From Robertmurraya sp. (GTDB taxonomy: Bacteria > Bacillota > Bacilli > Bacillales > Cytobacillaceae), in NCBI GenBank assembly GCA_025451895.1, contig JANWJP010000091.1:1898-65897 (forward strand): a DNA stretch of 64,000 nucleotides, given 5' to 3'. Positions 27,215-61,358 of the stretch are shown one piece after another; the first letter of the stretch is position 1, and every line of letters begins with the position of its first letter. A program made the translations under genes and the position numbers. Below the pieces are notes generated by a model, which made no database searches, had not been told where the DNA came from, and saw only the letters and a program-made list of their open reading frames with translations.

Positions 27215-27533
27215 TATTGACAAGGGCGATGACAGGGAAAGTACAATGGGTGAGCATGCTTAAAGAGAGGAAAACCGGCAGCTGAGAGGTTTTCTAAGCG
27301 TGTCCGGCGGAAAGTCCCCCTCGAGCTTCTTTTATGAACGAATTGATTTCCAGTAGTAAAAGACGGAAAAACCGTTAACGCATGAGTGCCAATTACAAAC
27401 AGGAAATTTGGGTTTATAATTATGAAAATAAAAATTTCCTCAGGCAGTTTTTATCAACAGACTGTCAGGTAATTGGAAAAAAGGTGGTACCGCGATTAAA
27501 TTCCATTCGTCCTTTTATGACGGGTGGTTTTTT
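27215..27533 (+). promoter_or_regulatory. T-box riboswitch leader of valS
   Basis: GATGA K-turn half (27228), AGTA box (27240), AGAGAG box (27264), and T-box core GGTGGTACCGCG (27483-27494). Terminator: CCATTCGTC (27503-27511) pairs with GACGGGTGG (27519-27527), then T6. Candidate Val specifier GTC at 27314-27316. Confidence 0.85.
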
Positions 27534-49222: not shown

Positions 49223-49406
49223 ACCGGATGTTTGCAAGAACTATAGAAATGAGTTTAGGAAAATAGAAAACCGTACATTTTTCGGATAATCTTTTTGAAA
49301 AAGATCTCGAATATCCCGTATGTATTTGTTTCGAAAACGGTCGATATTTGGTACAATTTAGCTGTATCCCCTTTTTGATACATCTTGAAGTCAGGTGATT
49401 TTGTCT

Positions 49407-49976
49407 ATGGAAATGCTTATTTTAGCCTCATCATCCCCGAGAAGGAAGGAGCTTTTGGAAAATATTCGCCTTCAATTTGAGGTTCACAGCAGCGATGCTG
49501 ATGAACACTTCAACCCTGAATTGCCGCCAAATGAAATAGTGATGGAACTTGCCAAACGAAAGGCGGAAAATGTTGCCGGGAAATATCCGGGAAGTTATGT
49601 GGTTGGCTCAGATACAATTGTTGTTTTAGACGGACAGATTCTCGGCAAACCGGGGAAACCCGAGGAAGCAGCGGCAATGCTGAGGAAACTGTCAGGAAGA
49701 TCCCATTATGTTTATACAGGGGTCTCCATCTTCAGTCCAAAAACAAATGTAGAGTTTTTCGAAAAAACGGAGGTGGTTTTTTGGGAACTGACGGAAGAGG
49801 AAATCACAGCTTATGTAAAGAGCGGCGAACCTTTTGATAAAGCAGGAGCTTACGGCATTCAAGGCTTGGGCAGTTTATTAGTTAAGAAGATAAACGGCGA
49901 TTATTTTTCTGTCGTCGGCCTTCCTGTTTCAAGAACCGTTCGTGAACTTAAGAGGCTGGGATATCCTGTCCTTTAA
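49407..49976 (+). CDS. maf: Maf nucleoside-triphosphate pyrophosphatase / septum-formation protein
   Basis: LILASSSPRRKELL, GSDTIVVLDG, and DKAGAYGIQG motifs. Confidence 0.93.
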   Translation: MEMLILASSSPRRKELLENIRLQFEVHSSDADEHFNPELPPNEIVMELAKRKAENVAGKYPGSYVVGSDTIVVLDGQILGKPGKPEEAAAMLRKLSGRSHYVYTGVSIFSPKTNVEFFEKTEVVFWELTEEEITAYVKSGEPFDKAGAYGIQGLGSLLVKKINGDYFSVVGLPVSRTVRELKRLGYPVL

Positions 49977-50023: not shown

Positions 50024-50569
50024 TTGAGAGAAAATTTAATGATTAAAGATTTTCCCGAGGACGAACGGCCCCGGGAAAGATTTATCCGCAATGGTCCTGA
50101 AAGCCTGTCAAATCATGAATTAATCGCTATTTTGCTTCGGACGGGAACAAAGGATGAATCAGTTCTGCAGCTTGCCAACCGATTGCTGACATCCTTCGAG
50201 GGTTTAAGAATGCTGAAGGATGCCACATTGGATGAAATCACCGCCATAAAAGGAATTGGCCGGGCAAAAGCCATTCAAATTCTGGCTGCAATAGAAATCG
50301 GCAGAAGAATTGCAAACCTCAACTATCATGACCGCTATGTAATCCGCTCTCCCGAAGACGGAGCCAATTATGTTATGAATGACATGAGATTCCTCACACA
50401 AGAGCACTTCGTTTGTCTTTACCTCAATACCAAAAATCAAGTTCTCCATAAAAAAACTGTTTTTATCGGAAGCTTAAATGCAAGCATCGTGCATCCGCGC
50501 GAGGTCTTTAAAGAAGCTTTGAAACGTTCTGCAGCCGCAGTCATCTGCCTTCATAATCACCCGTCAGGC
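50024..50569 (+). CDS. radC: radC exon 1 (RadC/JAB-domain protein, residues 1-182)
   Basis: DERPRERF, HhH region (LDEITAIKGIGRAKAI), then ...VICLHNHPSG ending exactly at 50569. The next nucleotides are GTGCG. Read-through adds only VRLQGVSFQRFS*. Confidence 0.9.
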
Positions 50570-52491
50570 GTGCGCCTGCAAGGTGTATCATTTCAGCGAT
50601 TTTCTTAAAATCTGGAATTCCTTACAATATTCCATGGTCAGCATCTTACCTCCGGGGGGAAACCTGCGGGAGGGAACATAGCATGATGTGAAAAGGGGAA
50701 AAGACGACTGAGCTATCCGGTCGAATCAGTTCTTCAGACCAAGTGATGTATGGTAAAAGCTGGATTGCCTGAATCCCAGACGATTGAGCGCCGGGTGCGC
50801 CGTTGCCTAAGATAGCTGACAGGCAATGTGGACAAAATGGAAGATGCTTCGCCTGAGCGTCTTTTCGAACAGTCTTCGAGTCCATAGTAAGGTTTGTCCA
50901 TCAAGCCTCCGTCCGGAGGAAACCGTCGAAAAGGATACCTAACCATCACGCATCTGAAATGATGACATAATGCAGGGATTACCTGTGTGCCAATGCTGTA
51001 TAGAAACGAGCGTATGGCATATGGTAACGGAGTCTCCGTAGTACCCGACGTTTGCCCGTAACAGGTTTAGCATGGGGAAGGGAGGCAGGCTGACATTTTG
51101 AAGGTAATAAGGAGTCATGAATATGGCTAAGGATCCATTCAAGCAGCTTAACATTATTAAAAAAGTTTCACAAAATGGTAAACCCGTTGTTGATTGTTTT
51201 CGTCTATTATATAAACATGAACTTTGGCTCAAAGCTTATCTTCAATTGCGGCCGCAAGAAAAATGCCGCAAGACGTTGAATGCCAATTATTTGAAGGAAA
51301 TTGAGCCATTGATCGAGAATTTAAAAAATGGTACCTTTCGCAGCAGTTTTTTCAATGATTTGCCCGGGAATAAAGCGGGAAAAGAGCCGCCTTTTCATGA
51401 CCTGCTTCTCCTTGAAACTATGAAATATATTCTTCAATCTGTGTATGGGGCGCAACGGCTTTTCCCCACCGGAAAATTTCGGGAGACGACCGCTTCCCGC
51501 GAGGCGCTTAAAATGATAAAGAAATGCTTTTATTCCTTTACCTGGTGTATAAAGGGAGAGATATTTGCTGACACTTTAAACATTCATGTTTTGCGCACAG
51601 TTTTAGCCGGGAAAATTAATGATAAGCGGTTTCTTTATCTTCTCCAAAAGGTGCTTGCCTCAAAAATTCTTGAATATAAGCAGGCAGAGTCTTTTCGCCT
51701 GTTAATGGAACATATTTATTTACTGGAAATTGATCAGTTTGTAAAAGCATACCGTGAAAGCAAATTTCCCCGAAAGAGAGGGGAAGGGGAACGGACTGTG
51801 CAAATGCAATATGTCCGTTTCGGCCGCGAGTTTGCAGTAGGGCTGTCATGTACAAAAAAACAAGCGTTCATTATGCAAAAGGAGCTGGAAGCTTTTTTGA
51901 AGGACCGGCTTCAAATTGACAGTGATAAAGAAAGCCGGATCTTTTTATCCCACTTGAGTAAGACCATCCCCTTTCTTGGCTATAAATTTTGCAAAGTGAA
52001 GAAAATGCAAAAGAAATGCATTCAGGGAGAGGGGAAGTTTTCCAAGCCGGTAAATGCAGATGACAGGGCAAGAATGTATAAGATCGTTTTGCTTATCCCG
52101 AAGCGGAAAATGAGAGAATTTGCCCGAAAACATGGGTATGGCAGGCTTGAAAACGGCGCAACACTGCACCGGAAAAAGTTGCTCCATAAATCAGAACAGG
52201 AGATAGCGGAGATTTATCATGCCGAACTGAAGAGGTTTGCGCAGTATTACAGTTTGGCGGCTAATTTTCATCATATGGACAAGCTTATTTATTTAGCCCG
52301 GGGAAGTTTTCTTAAAACCATTGCTGCAAAAAGGAAGAGTACTGTTGCAAAAACAGCCAAAAGGCTGAAAAAGCAAAAACAGGAGATTGTCAGCCGGCGA
52401 GCCGTATACTTTGAAAGAAGTACGTACGGTTCTGAGGGAGGGGAGGAAACCTGCTGTATTATCAGGCAAGGCGCCTTGTCCCCCACCCTAC
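50570..52491 (+). mobile_element. Group II intron (1,922 nt) inside radC
   Basis: 5' GTGCG. EBS2 CGGGTG (50792-97) and EBS1 GCCTGA (50851-56, in a 9-nt hairpin loop) complement exon-1 CACCCG|TCAGGC. 11-nt receptor TATGG (50749)/CCTAAG (50806). Domain V at 52399-52432. Unpaired A at 52485. 3' end CTAC. The exons join in frame. Confidence 0.92.
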
Positions 52492-52520
52492 GATCCCACA
52501 CCGAGCAGAGAGGATATTGA
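51117..52520 (+). CDS. Intron-encoded protein: degenerate reverse transcriptase plus maturase (X) domain
   Basis: RT-like blocks are recognisable ([15 protein letters not shown] ~ motif 4; [12 protein letters not shown] ~ motif 5; IPFLGYKF ~ motif 7). X-domain block [18 protein letters not shown]...[26 protein letters not shown] upstream. The end given is the first in-frame stop, which lies in exon 2. Confidence 0.8.
52399..52432 (+). other. Group II intron domain V (catalytic hairpin)
   Basis: GAGCCGTATACTTT-GAAA-GAAGTACGTACGGTTC is a 34-nt hairpin with the AGC triad, a 2-nt AC bulge and a GAAA tetraloop, near-identical to the canonical DV consensus. Confidence 0.93.
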
Positions 52521-52632
52521 TGTGACAAAAAGGCTTGCAGAATCAGGAAAAATACTTGGTATTGAGTTGTTGGACCATGTCATCATCGGTGAAAATAAAT
52601 ATGTTAGTTTAAAGGAAAAAGGATATTTATAA
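52492..52632 (+). CDS. radC: radC exon 2 (residues 183-228)
   Basis: Begins [46 protein letters not shown], the conserved RadC C-terminus that follows HNHPSG. In frame with exon 1 after intron removal. Confidence 0.9.
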
Positions 52633-52928: not shown

Positions 52929-53951
52929 ATGTTAGGAATTGGAACAAGAGATCTTGGAATAGACCTAGGTACTGCGAATACCCTAGTTTATGTGAAAGGT
53001 AAAGGAATTGCTGTTCGGGAACCTTCTGTTGTGGCTTTACAAACAGATACAAAAACGATTGTTGCTGTCGGAAATGAAGCAAAAAATATGATCGGCAGAA
53101 CACCCGGAAATATTGTTGCCCTAAGGCCGATGAAGGATGGAGTGATTGCTGATTATGATACAACGGCAACAATGATGAAATATTACATTAATAAAGCTTT
53201 AAAGAAAAAAGGCCCATTTACCGGAAAGCCTTATGTAATGATTTGCGTTCCTTCGGGAATTACGGCAGTTGAGGAACGGGCTGTCATAGACGCAACCCGT
53301 CAGGCGGGAGCCCGTGATGCCTATACGATTGAGGAGCCTTTTGCGGCCGCAATCGGAGCCAATCTTCCTGTTTGGGAACCGACGGGCAGCATGGTTGTTG
53401 ATATTGGCGGCGGCACAACGGAAGTGGCGGTAATCTCTTTAGGCGGGATTGTAACCAGCCAATCCATCCGTATTGCCGGAGATGAAATGGATGAAGCGAT
53501 GGTGAACTACATACGGAAGACCTATAATTTAATGATTGGTGACCGTACTGCTGAAATGATCAAAGTGGAAATCGGCAGTGCCGGTGACCCGGAAGGAATC
53601 GAAAATATGGAAATTCGCGGCCGTGATTTGCTGACAGGTCTTCCAAAAACGATTGACAGTACCGCTGAAGAAATTTCACTGGCTTTAAGGGATACGGTTT
53701 ATGCGATTGTTGATGCCGTTAAAGTAACCCTGGAAAAAACTCCCCCTGAACTTGCAGCCGACATTATGGATCGCGGTATTGTGCTTACAGGCGGGGGAGC
53801 CCTGCTTCGCAATCTCGATAAAGTGATTAGTGAAGAAACGAATATGCCTGTTGTAATTGCCGAAAATCCATTAGACTGTGTCGCAATCGGAACAGGAAAA
53901 GCACTGGACAATATTGACTTATTTAAAAATCGTGCTAAAGAGTCACGTTAA
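52929..53951 (+). CDS. mreB: Rod-shape-determining actin homologue MreB
   Basis: [14 protein letters not shown] phosphate-1 motif and [16 protein letters not shown] phosphate-2 motif. Start trimmed to ATG 52929 behind AAGGGAGA. Confidence 0.96.
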
Positions 53952-61204: not shown

Positions 61205-61345
61205 CTTATGTTATGTTTGTAGCACCCGTGCTACAACCGCACAGACCCGGGTTTTTAAGCTCACTTTTAGCGGATATGCGGCTTTTCCAACGGAAAAACT
61301 GCTGTTCAAAAAGGTGACACCTGTGCTGGCGAGTCTTAGTATATA
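61205..61345 (+). promoter_or_regulatory. Structured 5' leader of rplU-prp-rpmA (L21-leader type)
   Basis: About 150-nt untranslated leader with the GTAGCAC/GTGCTAC hairpin (61219-61236). Firmicute rplU operons are known to carry a ribosomal-protein leader here. Family membership was not verified. Confidence 0.45.
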
Positions 61346-61358
61346 AGGAGGTGCAGTT

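What the first reader, a model, noticed from the sequence alone, without database searches (positions are those of the whole stretch)
51117..52398. The intron-encoded protein looks like a maturase-only relic: RT catalytic residues are gone, the X domain is kept, and there is no DNA-binding/endonuclease tail
**RT motifs**
- The IEP still aligns by eye with group II RT blocks, but the catalytic positions are replaced.
- Where motif 5 should read YxDD (typically YVRYADDFV), the sequence is [10 protein letters not shown] (nt 51810-51839, with FGRE at 51819-51830).
- At motif 3 (typically ..DIKGFFDxIxH), it reads [15 protein letters not shown] (nt 51543-51587), without the leading Asp.
- The PQG of motif 4 is also missing.

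**X domain and tail**
- The maturase block [51 protein letters not shown] is well preserved.
- The ORF ends just after it, with no CxxC/H-N-H region.

**Inference**
- The protein can probably still assist splicing but cannot reverse-transcribe, so the intron would be immobile and fixed at this site.
- That is the situation known for organellar MatK-type maturases, and it is uncommon for bacterial introns.
Basis: partly seen in the sequence, partly recalled or inferred. Interest (0 to 1): 0.75.

Follow-up and report, generated by a model that had tools for sequence, protein, structure and literature searches.

The report
Splicing-only intron protein inside bacterial radC
A self-splicing (group II) intron sits inside the DNA-repair gene radC of a Bacillus-family bacterium, and its protein has lost its copying enzyme but kept its splicing-helper part; one such radC intron was already described, so this is a further example.

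Summary
Window 50570-52491 is a 1,922-nt group II intron that splits radC exactly inside its conserved HNHPSG|DPTPS motif. Its protein is a clear homologue of the LtrA-type reverse transcriptase/maturase. Motif 5 reads FGRE instead of YADD, and the motif 3 Asp is Glu. The PQG half of motif 4 and the RT4a insertion are deleted. The whole DNA-binding/endonuclease tail is gone, while the X/thumb domain is intact.

Two details need correcting. The likely start is ATG 51123. There is no stop at 52398: the frame runs through domains V and VI to a TGA in exon 2.

The maturase-only, immobile reading is supported:
- The frame is open in all 11 loci read, where a neutral simulation expects about 15-20 stops.
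- Constraint is concentrated on RT0, RT3a and X.
- The ribozyme is intact and covaries.
- Every relative examined lies at the same radC site.

It is not new in kind. A 2015 review describes O.i.I2 of Oceanobacillus iheyensis (ML-class protein without YADD, in radC) as the only bacterial case. The addition here is scale: at least 38 protein clusters (50% identity) with a decayed RT, and a few species that keep the intact form.

The parts
50024..50569 (+). radC exon 1 (UPF0758_N, HhH, and the first 76 profile positions of the RadC JAB domain); ends ...CLHNHPSG
   Evidence: Pfam PF20582 E 9e-31 and PF04002 profile positions 1-76 of 121. Lies between maf (49395-49976) and mreB (52929-53951).
50558..50569 (+). 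IBS2 (CACCCG, 50558-50563) and IBS1 (TCAGGC, 50564-50569), the last 12 nt of exon 1
   Evidence: Each is perfectly complementary to a domain I loop.
50570..52491 (+). Group II intron, 1,922 nt, IIA / mitochondrial-like type; starts GTGCG and ends CCCTAC
   Evidence: The RadC Pfam profile joins at 76|77 across the gap. Rfam RF00029 scores 60.8 bits. The insertion point is identical in 10 other loci.
50570..51087 (+). Ribozyme domains I-III
   Evidence: A 10-sequence alignment has 72% mean column identity. RNAalifold predicts 137 pairs, 52 with compensatory double changes.
50792..50797 (+). EBS2 candidate CGGGTG, in a 7-nt hairpin loop
   Evidence: 6/6 pairs with IBS2. Covaries in L003 (TGGATG with CATCCT).
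50850..50856 (+). delta (C 50850) plus the EBS1 candidate GCCTGA (50851-50856). A second GCCTGA at 50767-50772 is an alternative EBS1.
   Evidence: 6/6 pairs with IBS1, and delta C pairs with G 52492. The choice between the two GCCTGA copies is not settled across loci.
51088..52395 (+). Domain IV. The basal stem is GGCTGACA 51088-51095 paired with TGTCAGCC 52388-52395. It contains the IEP gene.
   Evidence: Exact 8-bp complement.
51107..51136 (+). DIVa-like element: the Shine-Dalgarno AGGAG (51110-51114) and both ATGs (51117, 51123) sit in a small hairpin. This is the presumed high-affinity binding site for the IEP.
   Evidence: AAGGAGTCATGAATATGGC is almost invariant in all 11 introns, whether the IEP is intact or decayed. 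The hairpin appears in the MFE fold, z = -1.87.
51123..52397 (+). Intron-encoded protein, functional part (425 aa). An RT-derived fold without a polymerase active site, plus the X/thumb domain.
   Evidence: LtrA E 1.5e-27. PF01348 only. AF2 pLDDT 88.7 and pTM 0.85. Foldseek best match LtrA 8h2h_D, E 8e-16.
51543..51587 (+). RT motif 3 remnant [15 protein letters not shown]: catalytic Asp replaced by Glu, with a 2-residue deletion
   Evidence: Alignments to LtrA and to the intact orthologues.
51810..51839 (+). RT motif 5 remnant [10 protein letters not shown]: YADD replaced by FGRE (51819-51830)
   Evidence: The tetrad differs in nearly every related cluster.
52080..52388 (+). X / thumb (maturase) domain
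   Evidence: PF01348 residues 322-424. Highest conservation: 72% identity and dN 0.19 against L001. Most of the residues invariant across 39 decayed proteins lie here.
52398..52520 (+). Read-through tail of the IEP frame across domains V and VI into exon 2. The stop is TGA 52518-52520. Probably a by-product of the deletion that removed the D/En domain.
   Evidence: The same read-through is seen in L001 and P0002, but not in L009 or L010.
52399..52432 (+). Domain V, 34 nt: AGC triad, 2-nt bulge, GAAA loop
   Evidence: Rfam RF00029. All pairs are kept in 11 loci, and the upper stem covaries.
52435..52489 (+). Domain VI with the bulged branch-point A at 52485
   Evidence: RNAalifold on 11 loci: column 93 is an unpaired A between paired columns. 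A confirmed at 52485.
52492..52632 (+). radC exon 2 ([11 protein letters not shown]...KGYL, stop TAA 52630-52632)
   Evidence: PF04002 profile positions 77-121 of 121, E 3e-16.

Best explanation
This is a domesticated group II intron (IIA RNA, mitochondrial-like protein class) permanently lodged in the chromosomal radC gene. It splits the conserved HNHPSG|DPTPS motif of the JAB domain.

**Proposed cycle**
1. radC is transcribed with the intron.
2. The intron protein is translated from domain IV (SD AGGAG, ATG 51123).
3. The protein binds its own intron through the retained RT0, RT3a and X/thumb surfaces, probably at the conserved DIVa hairpin that holds the SD and start codon.
4. That binding stabilises the ribozyme fold.
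5. The ribozyme splices by branching at A52485, guided by EBS1/IBS1, EBS2/IBS2 and delta/delta'. The radC frame is restored.

**Why the intron cannot retrohome on its own**
- The polymerase active site is destroyed: YADD to FGRE, motif 3 Asp to Glu, RT1 and PQG lost.
- The DNA-binding/endonuclease domain is deleted.

The intron is therefore inherited vertically with radC.

**Status of each step**
- Shown: intron anatomy, loss of the catalytic motifs, retention of the fold and of X, selection on the ORF, the shared insertion site.
- Inferred: that the protein is needed for splicing, where it binds, and that splicing occurs in vivo.
For: **Intron and exon junction**
- The RadC Pfam profile joins at 76|77 across the gap.
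- RF00029 scores 60.8 bits.
- Domains I-III have 137 predicted pairs, 52 with compensatory changes.
- Domains V and VI covary and carry a bulged A.
- EBS and IBS each pair 6/6, and delta pairs C-G.

**Loss of RT**
- No RVT_1 hit.
- The LtrA alignment and the alignments to intact orthologues agree on the lost motifs.
- The YADD position is a different tetrad in nearly every one of 38 related clusters.

**Protein still under selection**
- Window versus L001: pN 0.315 against pS 0.696 overall; X/thumb pN/pS 0.26, RT1-2 0.79.
- There are no stops in any of 11 loci, where neutral drift would give about 15-20.
- The residues invariant in 39 decayed proteins cluster in RT0, RT3a (DxRF) and X.
- AF2 pLDDT is 88.7, and the top structural match is LtrA.

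**Fixed and vertical**
- The site and the maf-radC-mreB context are the same in every locus read.
- Hosts with 94-97% identical MreB carry proteins only 42-50% identical, yet these share the same derived deletions.
- IEP G+C (41%) equals that of the window (42%).

**Precedent**
- O.i.I2 in radC of Oceanobacillus iheyensis (PMC4424553).
Against: - There is no RNA evidence here that the intron is spliced, and none that the protein is required. IIA introns can sometimes self-splice or use host factors.
- The protein evolves fast: dN 0.41 against 0.01-0.14 for neighbouring genes. Constraint is therefore weak outside RT0 and X.
- dS is saturated, so the dN/dS figures are rough.
- One metagenome contig carries the gene split into 276-aa and 188-aa pieces (P0009, P0008). 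This is either an assembly error or a strain that tolerates disruption.
- The ORF has no stop inside the intron, so translation must run through domains V and VI. That is odd for a well-tuned gene.
- Only 64 kb of this genome was seen, so other copies, or an intact RT elsewhere in the genome, cannot be excluded.
Confidence: 0.8

Rival explanations
1. The ORF is a decaying pseudogene with no function. The intron self-splices or relies on host factors, and the open frame is a leftover.
For: - The protein evolves very fast compared with its neighbours.
- The RT1-2 region and the linker are near neutral, pN/pS 0.77-0.79.
- A split version exists in one contig.
- The junk-like C-terminal tail reads through domains V and VI.
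Against: - The frame is open in all 11 loci and in at least 38 clusters of 368-493 aa, although they are only 26-50% identical. The neutral simulation gives P(open) <= 0.4% at only 0.1 substitutions per site.
- X/thumb has pN/pS 0.26 and 72% identity.
- The predicted fold is confident and RT-like.
Confidence: 0.07
2. The protein has become a general or trans-acting splicing factor, as MatK has. It would serve other ORF-less introns in the genome, or it would have a new regulatory role on RadC expression, rather than only its own intron.
For: In Terrihalobacillus insolitus (L003), radC carries a second group II intron 63 nt upstream with no long ORF, next to a decayed-IEP intron. That would fit trans action. 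MatK is known to bind several introns (PMC4424553).
Against: There is no other group II domain V or RT-like ORF in the 64-kb window. The window's radC has one intron. Nothing here bears on regulation.
Confidence: 0.08
3. The intron is still mobile, using an intact reverse transcriptase/endonuclease supplied in trans by another intron in the genome.
For: Intact proteins of the same lineage exist in other species (L002, L004, L005, P0025). Some genomes carry an intact-IEP intron right next to this site (L005, L012).
Against: - Every occurrence is at the one radC site, with the same neighbours.
- Closely related hosts share the same derived deletions but have strongly diverged proteins. This indicates long vertical descent, not recent spread.
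- There is no second RT in the window.
Confidence: 0.04
4. The motif assignment is shifted and an active RT site exists elsewhere in the protein.
For: A Glu sits at the motif 3 position (GEI) and another at the fourth position of the motif 5 tetrad (FGRE). Both are kept in the five closest relatives.
Against: - Three independent alignments give the same register: LtrA, the intact orthologues, and a 150-protein MAFFT alignment.
- There is no RVT_1 hit at E <= 1.
- RT1 and the PQG block are missing.
- Neither Glu is kept across the wider lineage.
Confidence: 0.01

Closest known systems
O.i.I2, the radC intron of Oceanobacillus iheyensis (Simon et al. 2008, as summarised in Zimmerly & Semper 2015, PMC4424553)
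   Same: A bacterial (Bacillaceae) group II intron in radC. Its IEP is of the mitochondrial-like class, lacks YADD and other RT motifs, and has an ORF free of stop codons, so it is inferred to retain maturase activity.
   Different: It is in a different species. The O.i.I2 sequence could not be obtained here, so identity of the insertion site and degree of relatedness were not tested directly. The review calls O.i.I2 the only bacterial example. The searches here found at least 38 protein clusters (50% identity) with the decayed form.
Intact radC-site introns of Ureibacillus massiliensis, Bacillus ndiopicus and a Bacillus cereus-group strain (L002, L004, L005). A radC-family intron in the B. 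cereus group is mentioned in Tourasse & Kolsto 2008, PMC2504315.
   Same: The insertion point is the same (HNHPSG|). The ribozyme is homologous, 74-79% nucleotide identity. The IEP N-terminus (MAKNPFQQL...DCYRL) and the X domain are the same.
   Different: Their IEPs are 627 aa with GDIKGFFD, TPQGG, YADD, and D and H-N-H endonuclease domains. They are presumably active retroelements. The window protein is 39-40% identical to them and lacks all of these features.
MatK (chloroplast trnK intron) and MatR (plant mitochondrial nad1 intron 4)
   Same: Intron-encoded, RT-derived proteins of IIA introns that lost RT catalysis and the En domain but kept domain X. They function, or are thought to function, as splicing factors for introns fixed in cellular genes.
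   Different: They are organellar and belong to different sequence families. There is no MatK_N hit; only the shared PF01348 X-domain model matches. MatK is unalignable over RT0-4, whereas here the whole RT fold is still recognisable. MatK serves several introns in trans.
LtrA / Ll.LtrB of Lactococcus lactis (PDB 5g2x, 8h2h)
   Same: It is the best sequence match (E 1.5e-27) and the best structural match (TMq 0.70). The domain order RT0-RT7 then X is the same, and it is also a IIA intron with the ORF in domain IV.
   Different: LtrA is a 599-aa active RT with D and En domains, and Ll.LtrB is mobile.
Prp8 RT-like domain (spliceosome)
   Same: An RT-fingers/palm/thumb fold without polymerase activity that scaffolds a splicing ribozyme. 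It appears among the Foldseek matches.
   Different: It is only a distant structural analogue (TMq about 0.45, 11% identity). It is eukaryotic, nuclear and not intron-encoded.

Membership tests
Group II intron (IIA RNA / mitochondrial-like IEP class) | Conserved 5' end GUGYG and 3' end AY | tested here: met
   GTGCG at 50570 and ...CCCTAC at 52491. Identical ends in the aligned loci, except that L004 ends in AAC.
Group II intron (IIA RNA / mitochondrial-like IEP class) | Domain V (34 nt, AGC triad, bulge) and domain VI with a bulged branch A | tested here: met
   RF00029 scores 60.8 bits against a gathering score of 40. Covariation in 11 loci, with an unpaired A at 52485.
Group II intron (IIA RNA / mitochondrial-like IEP class) | Structured domains I-III with exon-binding sites that match the flanking exon | tested here: met
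   137 predicted pairs, 52 with compensatory changes. EBS1/IBS1 and EBS2/IBS2 pair 6/6, and delta pairs with delta'. Which of the two GCCTGA loops is EBS1 remains ambiguous.
Group II intron (IIA RNA / mitochondrial-like IEP class) | IEP of the mitochondrial-like lineage, encoded in domain IV | tested here: inconclusive
   The best PDB hit is LtrA. PF01348 is found here, and the AI2M-like HNH model (PF21368) in relatives of about 600-645 aa. No formal phylogeny with reference classes was built.
Active retroelement form (RT/maturase/endonuclease IEP) | RT domain recognisable by Pfam RVT_1 with catalytic Asp in motif 3 and YxDD in motif 5 | tested here: not met
   No RVT_1 hit at E <= 1. GEI stands for GDI and FGRE for YADD.
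Active retroelement form (RT/maturase/endonuclease IEP) | DNA-binding and H-N-H endonuclease domains (in the En-plus ML class) | tested here: not met
   About 120 C-terminal residues of the intact orthologues are absent. There is no CxxC/HNH, and only about 30 nt lie between X and domain V.
Active retroelement form (RT/maturase/endonuclease IEP) | Multiple copies or several insertion sites indicating mobility | tested here: inconclusive
   One copy in the 64-kb window. The 24 contigs read that carry the identical protein all have the same context. The complete genome was not available.
Maturase-only (degenerate) IEP introns: O.i.I2 / MatK / MatR kind | RT catalytic motifs lost while domain X is conserved | tested here: met
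Maturase-only (degenerate) IEP introns: O.i.I2 / MatK / MatR kind | ORF kept open and under purifying selection | tested here: met
   No stops in 11 loci, against about 15-20 expected under neutrality. pN/pS is 0.45 overall and 0.26 in X. dS is saturated, so the values are approximate.
Maturase-only (degenerate) IEP introns: O.i.I2 / MatK / MatR kind | Intron fixed in a conserved cellular gene whose frame is restored by splicing | tested here: met
   The RadC profile is continuous at 76|77. The site is the same in all loci.
Maturase-only (degenerate) IEP introns: O.i.I2 / MatK / MatR kind | Protein promotes splicing of its intron | not testable with these tools
   This needs in vivo or in vitro splicing assays.
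O.i.I2 lineage specifically | Sequence homology and the same insertion site as O.i.I2 | not tested
The match rests on the review's description: radC, ML class, no YADD, Bacillaceae.
MatK family proper | MatK N-terminal domain; plastid trnK intron context | tested here: not met
   Pfam lists only PF01348 and a sub-threshold DUF4487 hit (E 0.0026), with no MatK_N. The context is bacterial radC. It works like MatK but is not a member.

The most novel reading that the evidence does not exclude
The radC intron of Bacillaceae would be a long-lived, vertically inherited, domesticated intron lineage.

- In it, the reverse transcriptase has decayed several times independently. RT4a deletion boundaries and motif 5 remnants differ between the window clade, L003, L006, L011 and L012.
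- RT0, RT3a and X stay conserved throughout.

This would be a bacterial counterpart of organellar intron domestication. It would run against the view that non-mobile group II derivatives do not persist in bacteria. It would also give a graded natural series, from intact RT to pure maturase, in culturable hosts.
Probability: 0.55. Interest if true: 0.55.

Novelty: new member of a known kind. Interest (0 to 1): 0.4.

Why it matters
How a mobile retroelement turns into a fixed, host-dependent intron with a splicing-only protein is central to ideas about the origin of organellar and spliceosomal introns (MatK, MatR, Prp8).

- In bacteria this transition was thought to be nearly absent, with one described case.
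- This locus is a second clear instance of that case.
- The related loci show intact, half-decayed and fully decayed proteins of the same intron at the same radC site.
- Some of these are in cultured, named Bacillaceae isolates, where splicing dependence, RNA binding and loss of mobility could be tested directly. The window organism itself was not identified.

There is also a practical point. Where a database name was seen, NCBI mostly labels these proteins 'group II intron reverse transcriptase/maturase' (one entry says 'Retron-type reverse transcriptase'). That overstates their activity.

Tried and rejected
- **dN/dS on the closest strains.** L007 and L008 differ from the window by only 3-4 bases in 5-7 kb, so they are uninformative. 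Window versus L001 and L010 was used instead, where dS is saturated.
- **Simon et al. 2008.** Three attempts to read it, by DOI and by two PMC ids, failed. The O.i.I2 description is therefore second-hand, from the 2015 review.
- **O. iheyensis sequence.** The single genome-collection scan did not return it. Its patterns were tuned to the window clade.
- **Profile search in the word-indexed protein collection.** It gave only 9 hits. The exhaustive HMM search of representatives was far more informative.
- **Look-up of P0029** (Virgibacillus) found no contig on record.
- **EBS1 assignment.** I first took GCCTGA at 50767-50772. A second GCCTGA at 50851-50856 fits the canonical EBS2-then-EBS1 order and covaries in L003, but its alignment breaks down in L005, L006, L011 and L012. 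This is left open.
- **Shifted-motif idea.** Rejected on three concordant alignments.
- **Literature searches** for later descriptions of bacterial decayed IEPs found nothing beyond O.i.I2.
Full report
**What is at the locus**

The window carries the Bacillaceae gene order maf (49395-49976), radC, mreB (52929-53951), mreC.
- radC is interrupted. Exon 1 (50024-50569) ends ...CLHNHPSG and matches positions 1-76 of the Pfam RadC JAB profile.
- Exon 2 (52492-52632) starts DPTPSREDI and matches positions 77-121.
- The 1,922 nt between them begin GTGCG and end CCCTAC.
- Rfam finds a group II domain V/VI at 52397-52491 (60.8 bits, gathering score 40). It is the only one in the 64 kb.
- The intron therefore splits the most conserved motif of RadC, and removing it restores the frame exactly.

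**Check of the observation**

- [10 protein letters not shown] is at 51810-51839, FGRE at 51819-51830, and [15 protein letters not shown] at 51543-51587.
- Pfam reports only the X-domain model PF01348 (E 2.3e-9, residues 322-424). It reports no RVT_1 even at E <= 1.
- phmmer against PDB sequences gives LtrA as the only hit (E 1.5e-27, query residues 13-418). LtrA YVRYADDF lies over YVRFGREF, and GDIKGCFD over GEIFADTL.
- The register is confirmed by intact proteins of the same intron from other species.

Compared with those intact proteins:

| Region | State in the window protein |
|---|---|
| RT1 block PKxNGKxRPLGxP | Unrecognisable |
| Motif 3 Asp | Replaced by Glu, with a 2-residue deletion |
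| PQG half of motif 4 | Deleted |
| RT4a insertion | About 57 of its roughly 70 residues deleted |
| YADD | Replaced by FGRE |
| D and H-N-H endonuclease domains (about 120 residues) | Absent |
| RT0, RT2, RT3a, second half of RT4, RT6, RT7, X | Still alignable |

Two corrections are needed.
- The Shine-Dalgarno AGGAG (51110-51114) is placed for ATG 51123, not 51117. The family N-terminus is MAK[ND]PF.
- No stop follows the X domain. The frame runs through domains V and VI to TGA 52518-52520 in exon 2.

**The ribozyme is intact**

Eleven homologous introns were collected: the window plus ten loci from genomes and metagenome assemblies.
- Domains I-III, aligned for ten of them, show 72% mean column identity. 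RNAalifold predicts 137 pairs, 52 of which keep pairing through changes on both sides.
- Domain V is fully paired in all eleven, with a covarying upper stem. Domain VI has an unpaired A, window 52485.
- The last 12 nt of exon 1 (CACCCG TCAGGC) are perfectly complementary to two domain I loops: CGGGTG at 50792-50797, and GCCTGA at 50851-50856 or 50767-50772.
- The base 5' of EBS1 pairs with the first exon 2 base.
- An 8-bp stem (51088-51095 with 52388-52395) closes domain IV.
- The SD/start region AAGGAGTCATGAATATGGC is almost invariant in all introns and forms a small hairpin. This is what is expected of a DIVa protein-binding site. That the LtrA site contains the SD and start codon is established knowledge and was not tested here.

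**The protein is maintained, but only partly**

- The exact window protein (P0006, 465 aa) was read on 24 contigs, all with the same neighbours.
- Against the closest distinct relative (L001, an uncultured Bacillaceae), host proteins are 79-98% identical (Maf 79%, MreC 87%, RadC exons 93% and 98%, MreB 97%). The intron protein is only 50% identical, with dN 0.41 against 0.01-0.14 for the neighbours.
- pN (0.315) is still well below pS (0.696).
- Constraint is uneven:

| Region | Identity | pN/pS |
|---|---|---|
| X/thumb | 72% | 0.26 |
| RT0 | 60% | 0.40 |
| RT1-2 | 32% | 0.79 |
| Linker | 20% | 0.77 |

- dS is saturated, so these are rough figures.
- A simple neutral simulation on the window ORF gives P(no stop) = 0.4% after 0.1 substitutions per site and 0 from 0.41 upward, with 15-20 stops expected. 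No locus has one before its own C-terminus.
- An AlphaFold2 model built on 39 family members is confident (pLDDT 88.7, pTM 0.85). Its best PDB match is LtrA in the intron RNP (8h2h_D, E 8e-16, TMq 0.70), followed by other group II RTs.
- The fingers-palm-thumb scaffold therefore survives without the active site.

**The wider family**

An exhaustive HMM search of 1.84 billion representative proteins gave 3,962 hits at E <= 1e-3.
- Among the best 150, 38 clusters (each no more than 50% identical to the others) share the lineage signature (MAK[ND]PFxQL...DCYRL). The 42 decayed sequences with that signature, which include the window and three locus-derived proteins, are 368-493 aa long. The clusters lack YADD, PQG and the endonuclease domain.
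- Only two clusters with that signature (P0025, P0047) and three genome loci (L002, L004, L005) keep the full 626-629 aa form.
- The four YADD positions show nearly as many tetrads as clusters. The motif 3 position is E, N, D, S, K, T and others.
- Residues invariant or nearly invariant across 39 decayed proteins lie in RT0 (Q8 L9 D24 C25 R27 L28 Y30 W35), RT3/3a (W141, D167 R169 F170), a few scaffold positions, and X.
- Named sources are all Bacillaceae: Virgibacillus, Halobacillus karajensis, Saliterribacillus persicus, Priestia taiwanensis, Pelagirhabdus alkalitolerans, Terrihalobacillus insolitus and Bacillus coreaensis.

**Same site everywhere, and signs of vertical descent**

- Twelve related loci were read besides the window: L001-L006 and L009-L013 for relatives, and L007 for the window's own protein. 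All have the intron in radC next to maf and/or mreB.
- All eleven introns share the same 3' splice position. The ten whose 5' junction is on the contig share HNHPSG|GTGCG.
- The hosts closest to the window (L001, L009, L010; MreB 94-97%, RadC exon 1 89-93%) carry proteins only 42-50% identical to it. Yet these share its derived states: Glu in motif 3, the 10-residue RT4 deletion, xxxE in motif 5.
- That pattern fits inheritance of an already decayed gene from a common ancestor, followed by fast divergence.
- In contrast, intact proteins are as conserved as the host proteins or more so (L002-L004 81% against MreC 69%; L002-L005 74% against 49%).
- Other decayed forms (L003 YTGS, L011 YLNE, L012 FMNH, L006 EFEQ) have different RT4a deletion boundaries. 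L003 is 65% identical to an intact protein. This suggests several independent losses. That is an inference from indel patterns, not from a tree.

**Comparison with what is known**

- Zimmerly & Semper 2015 state that decayed IEPs are common in organelles (MatK, MatR) but rare in bacteria. Their 'only known example' is O.i.I2 of Oceanobacillus iheyensis, which has an ML-class IEP lacking YADD and sits in radC (PMC4424553).
- Tourasse & Kolsto 2008 mention a radC-family intron in the B. cereus group (PMC2504315).
- The window intron matches the O.i.I2 description on every stated point. I could not obtain the O.i.I2 sequence to test homology directly.
- Full-text searches found no later account of a larger bacterial family.
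- The finding is therefore a correct reading of a known, rare kind. The new element is the size and graded nature of the lineage.

**Verdict**

- Observation: confirmed, with two coordinate corrections.
- Interpretation: supported.
- Novelty: a new member of a known kind.
- Interest: moderate (0.4).
- Maturase activity, in vivo splicing and genome-wide copy number remain untested.

Noticed in passing
L003:2655-3444, L005:1452-3435, L012:354-2331: In three relatives, radC carries two group II introns separated by a 63-nt (21-codon) micro-exon. A second domain V/VI ends at L003:3381, L005:3372 and L012:2268. The upstream intron has an intact 603-605 aa IEP in L005 and L012. In Terrihalobacillus insolitus (L003) the roughly 730-nt interval has no long ORF, so an ORF-less intron may sit next to a decayed-IEP intron.
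   Followed up: partly
L015:3001-4744 (CP048104.1, GCA_013265585.1) and L014: A different ML sublineage (N-terminus MQKAEVILSLL..., P0099, 441 aa, no YADD) also has a decayed IEP with its own domain V/VI. It lies between a parB-like gene and soj/parA. Many other short YADD-less proteins (MRNP..., MQKAEV... types) appear among the top 150 hits. RT decay in Bacillales introns may therefore not be limited to radC.
   Followed up: partly
window 52398-52520: The IEP frame has no stop inside the intron; its TGA lies 27 nt into exon 2. A ribosome finishing the protein must unwind domains V and VI, and the excised lariat would carry a non-stop ORF. L001 and P0002 share this. L009 and L010 stop before domain V. 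In the intact orthologues the frame ends just inside domain V (...LASRIH).
   Followed up: partly
P0008 / P0009 (one 2,067-nt metagenome contig): A near-identical copy of the window IEP is called as two pieces (276 aa and 188 aa) with a frameshift around residue 262. It is either an assembly error or a strain in which the gene is broken.
   Followed up: no
L002:3430-3435 and L012:2326-2331: Where Ser in HNHPSG is encoded AGT instead of TCN, pairing between IBS1 and either EBS1 candidate drops to 3 of 6 base pairs, although the intron is present. In L002 it even has an intact IEP.
   Followed up: no
window 50767-50772 and 50851-50856: Two identical GCCTGA hexamers in separate domain I hairpin loops are both perfectly complementary to IBS1. 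Which one is EBS1 could not be settled from covariation.
   Followed up: partly
window 27220-27517 and 61225-61346: Rfam gathering-score hits unrelated to the finding: a T-box leader (109.6 bits) and a ribosomal protein L21 leader (56.9 bits).
   Followed up: no
P0029, P0038, P0048, P0132, P0180 (NCBI records): Public annotation names most of these YADD-less proteins 'group II intron reverse transcriptase/maturase', and one 'Retron-type reverse transcriptase'. The loss of RT motifs is not flagged.
   Followed up: no
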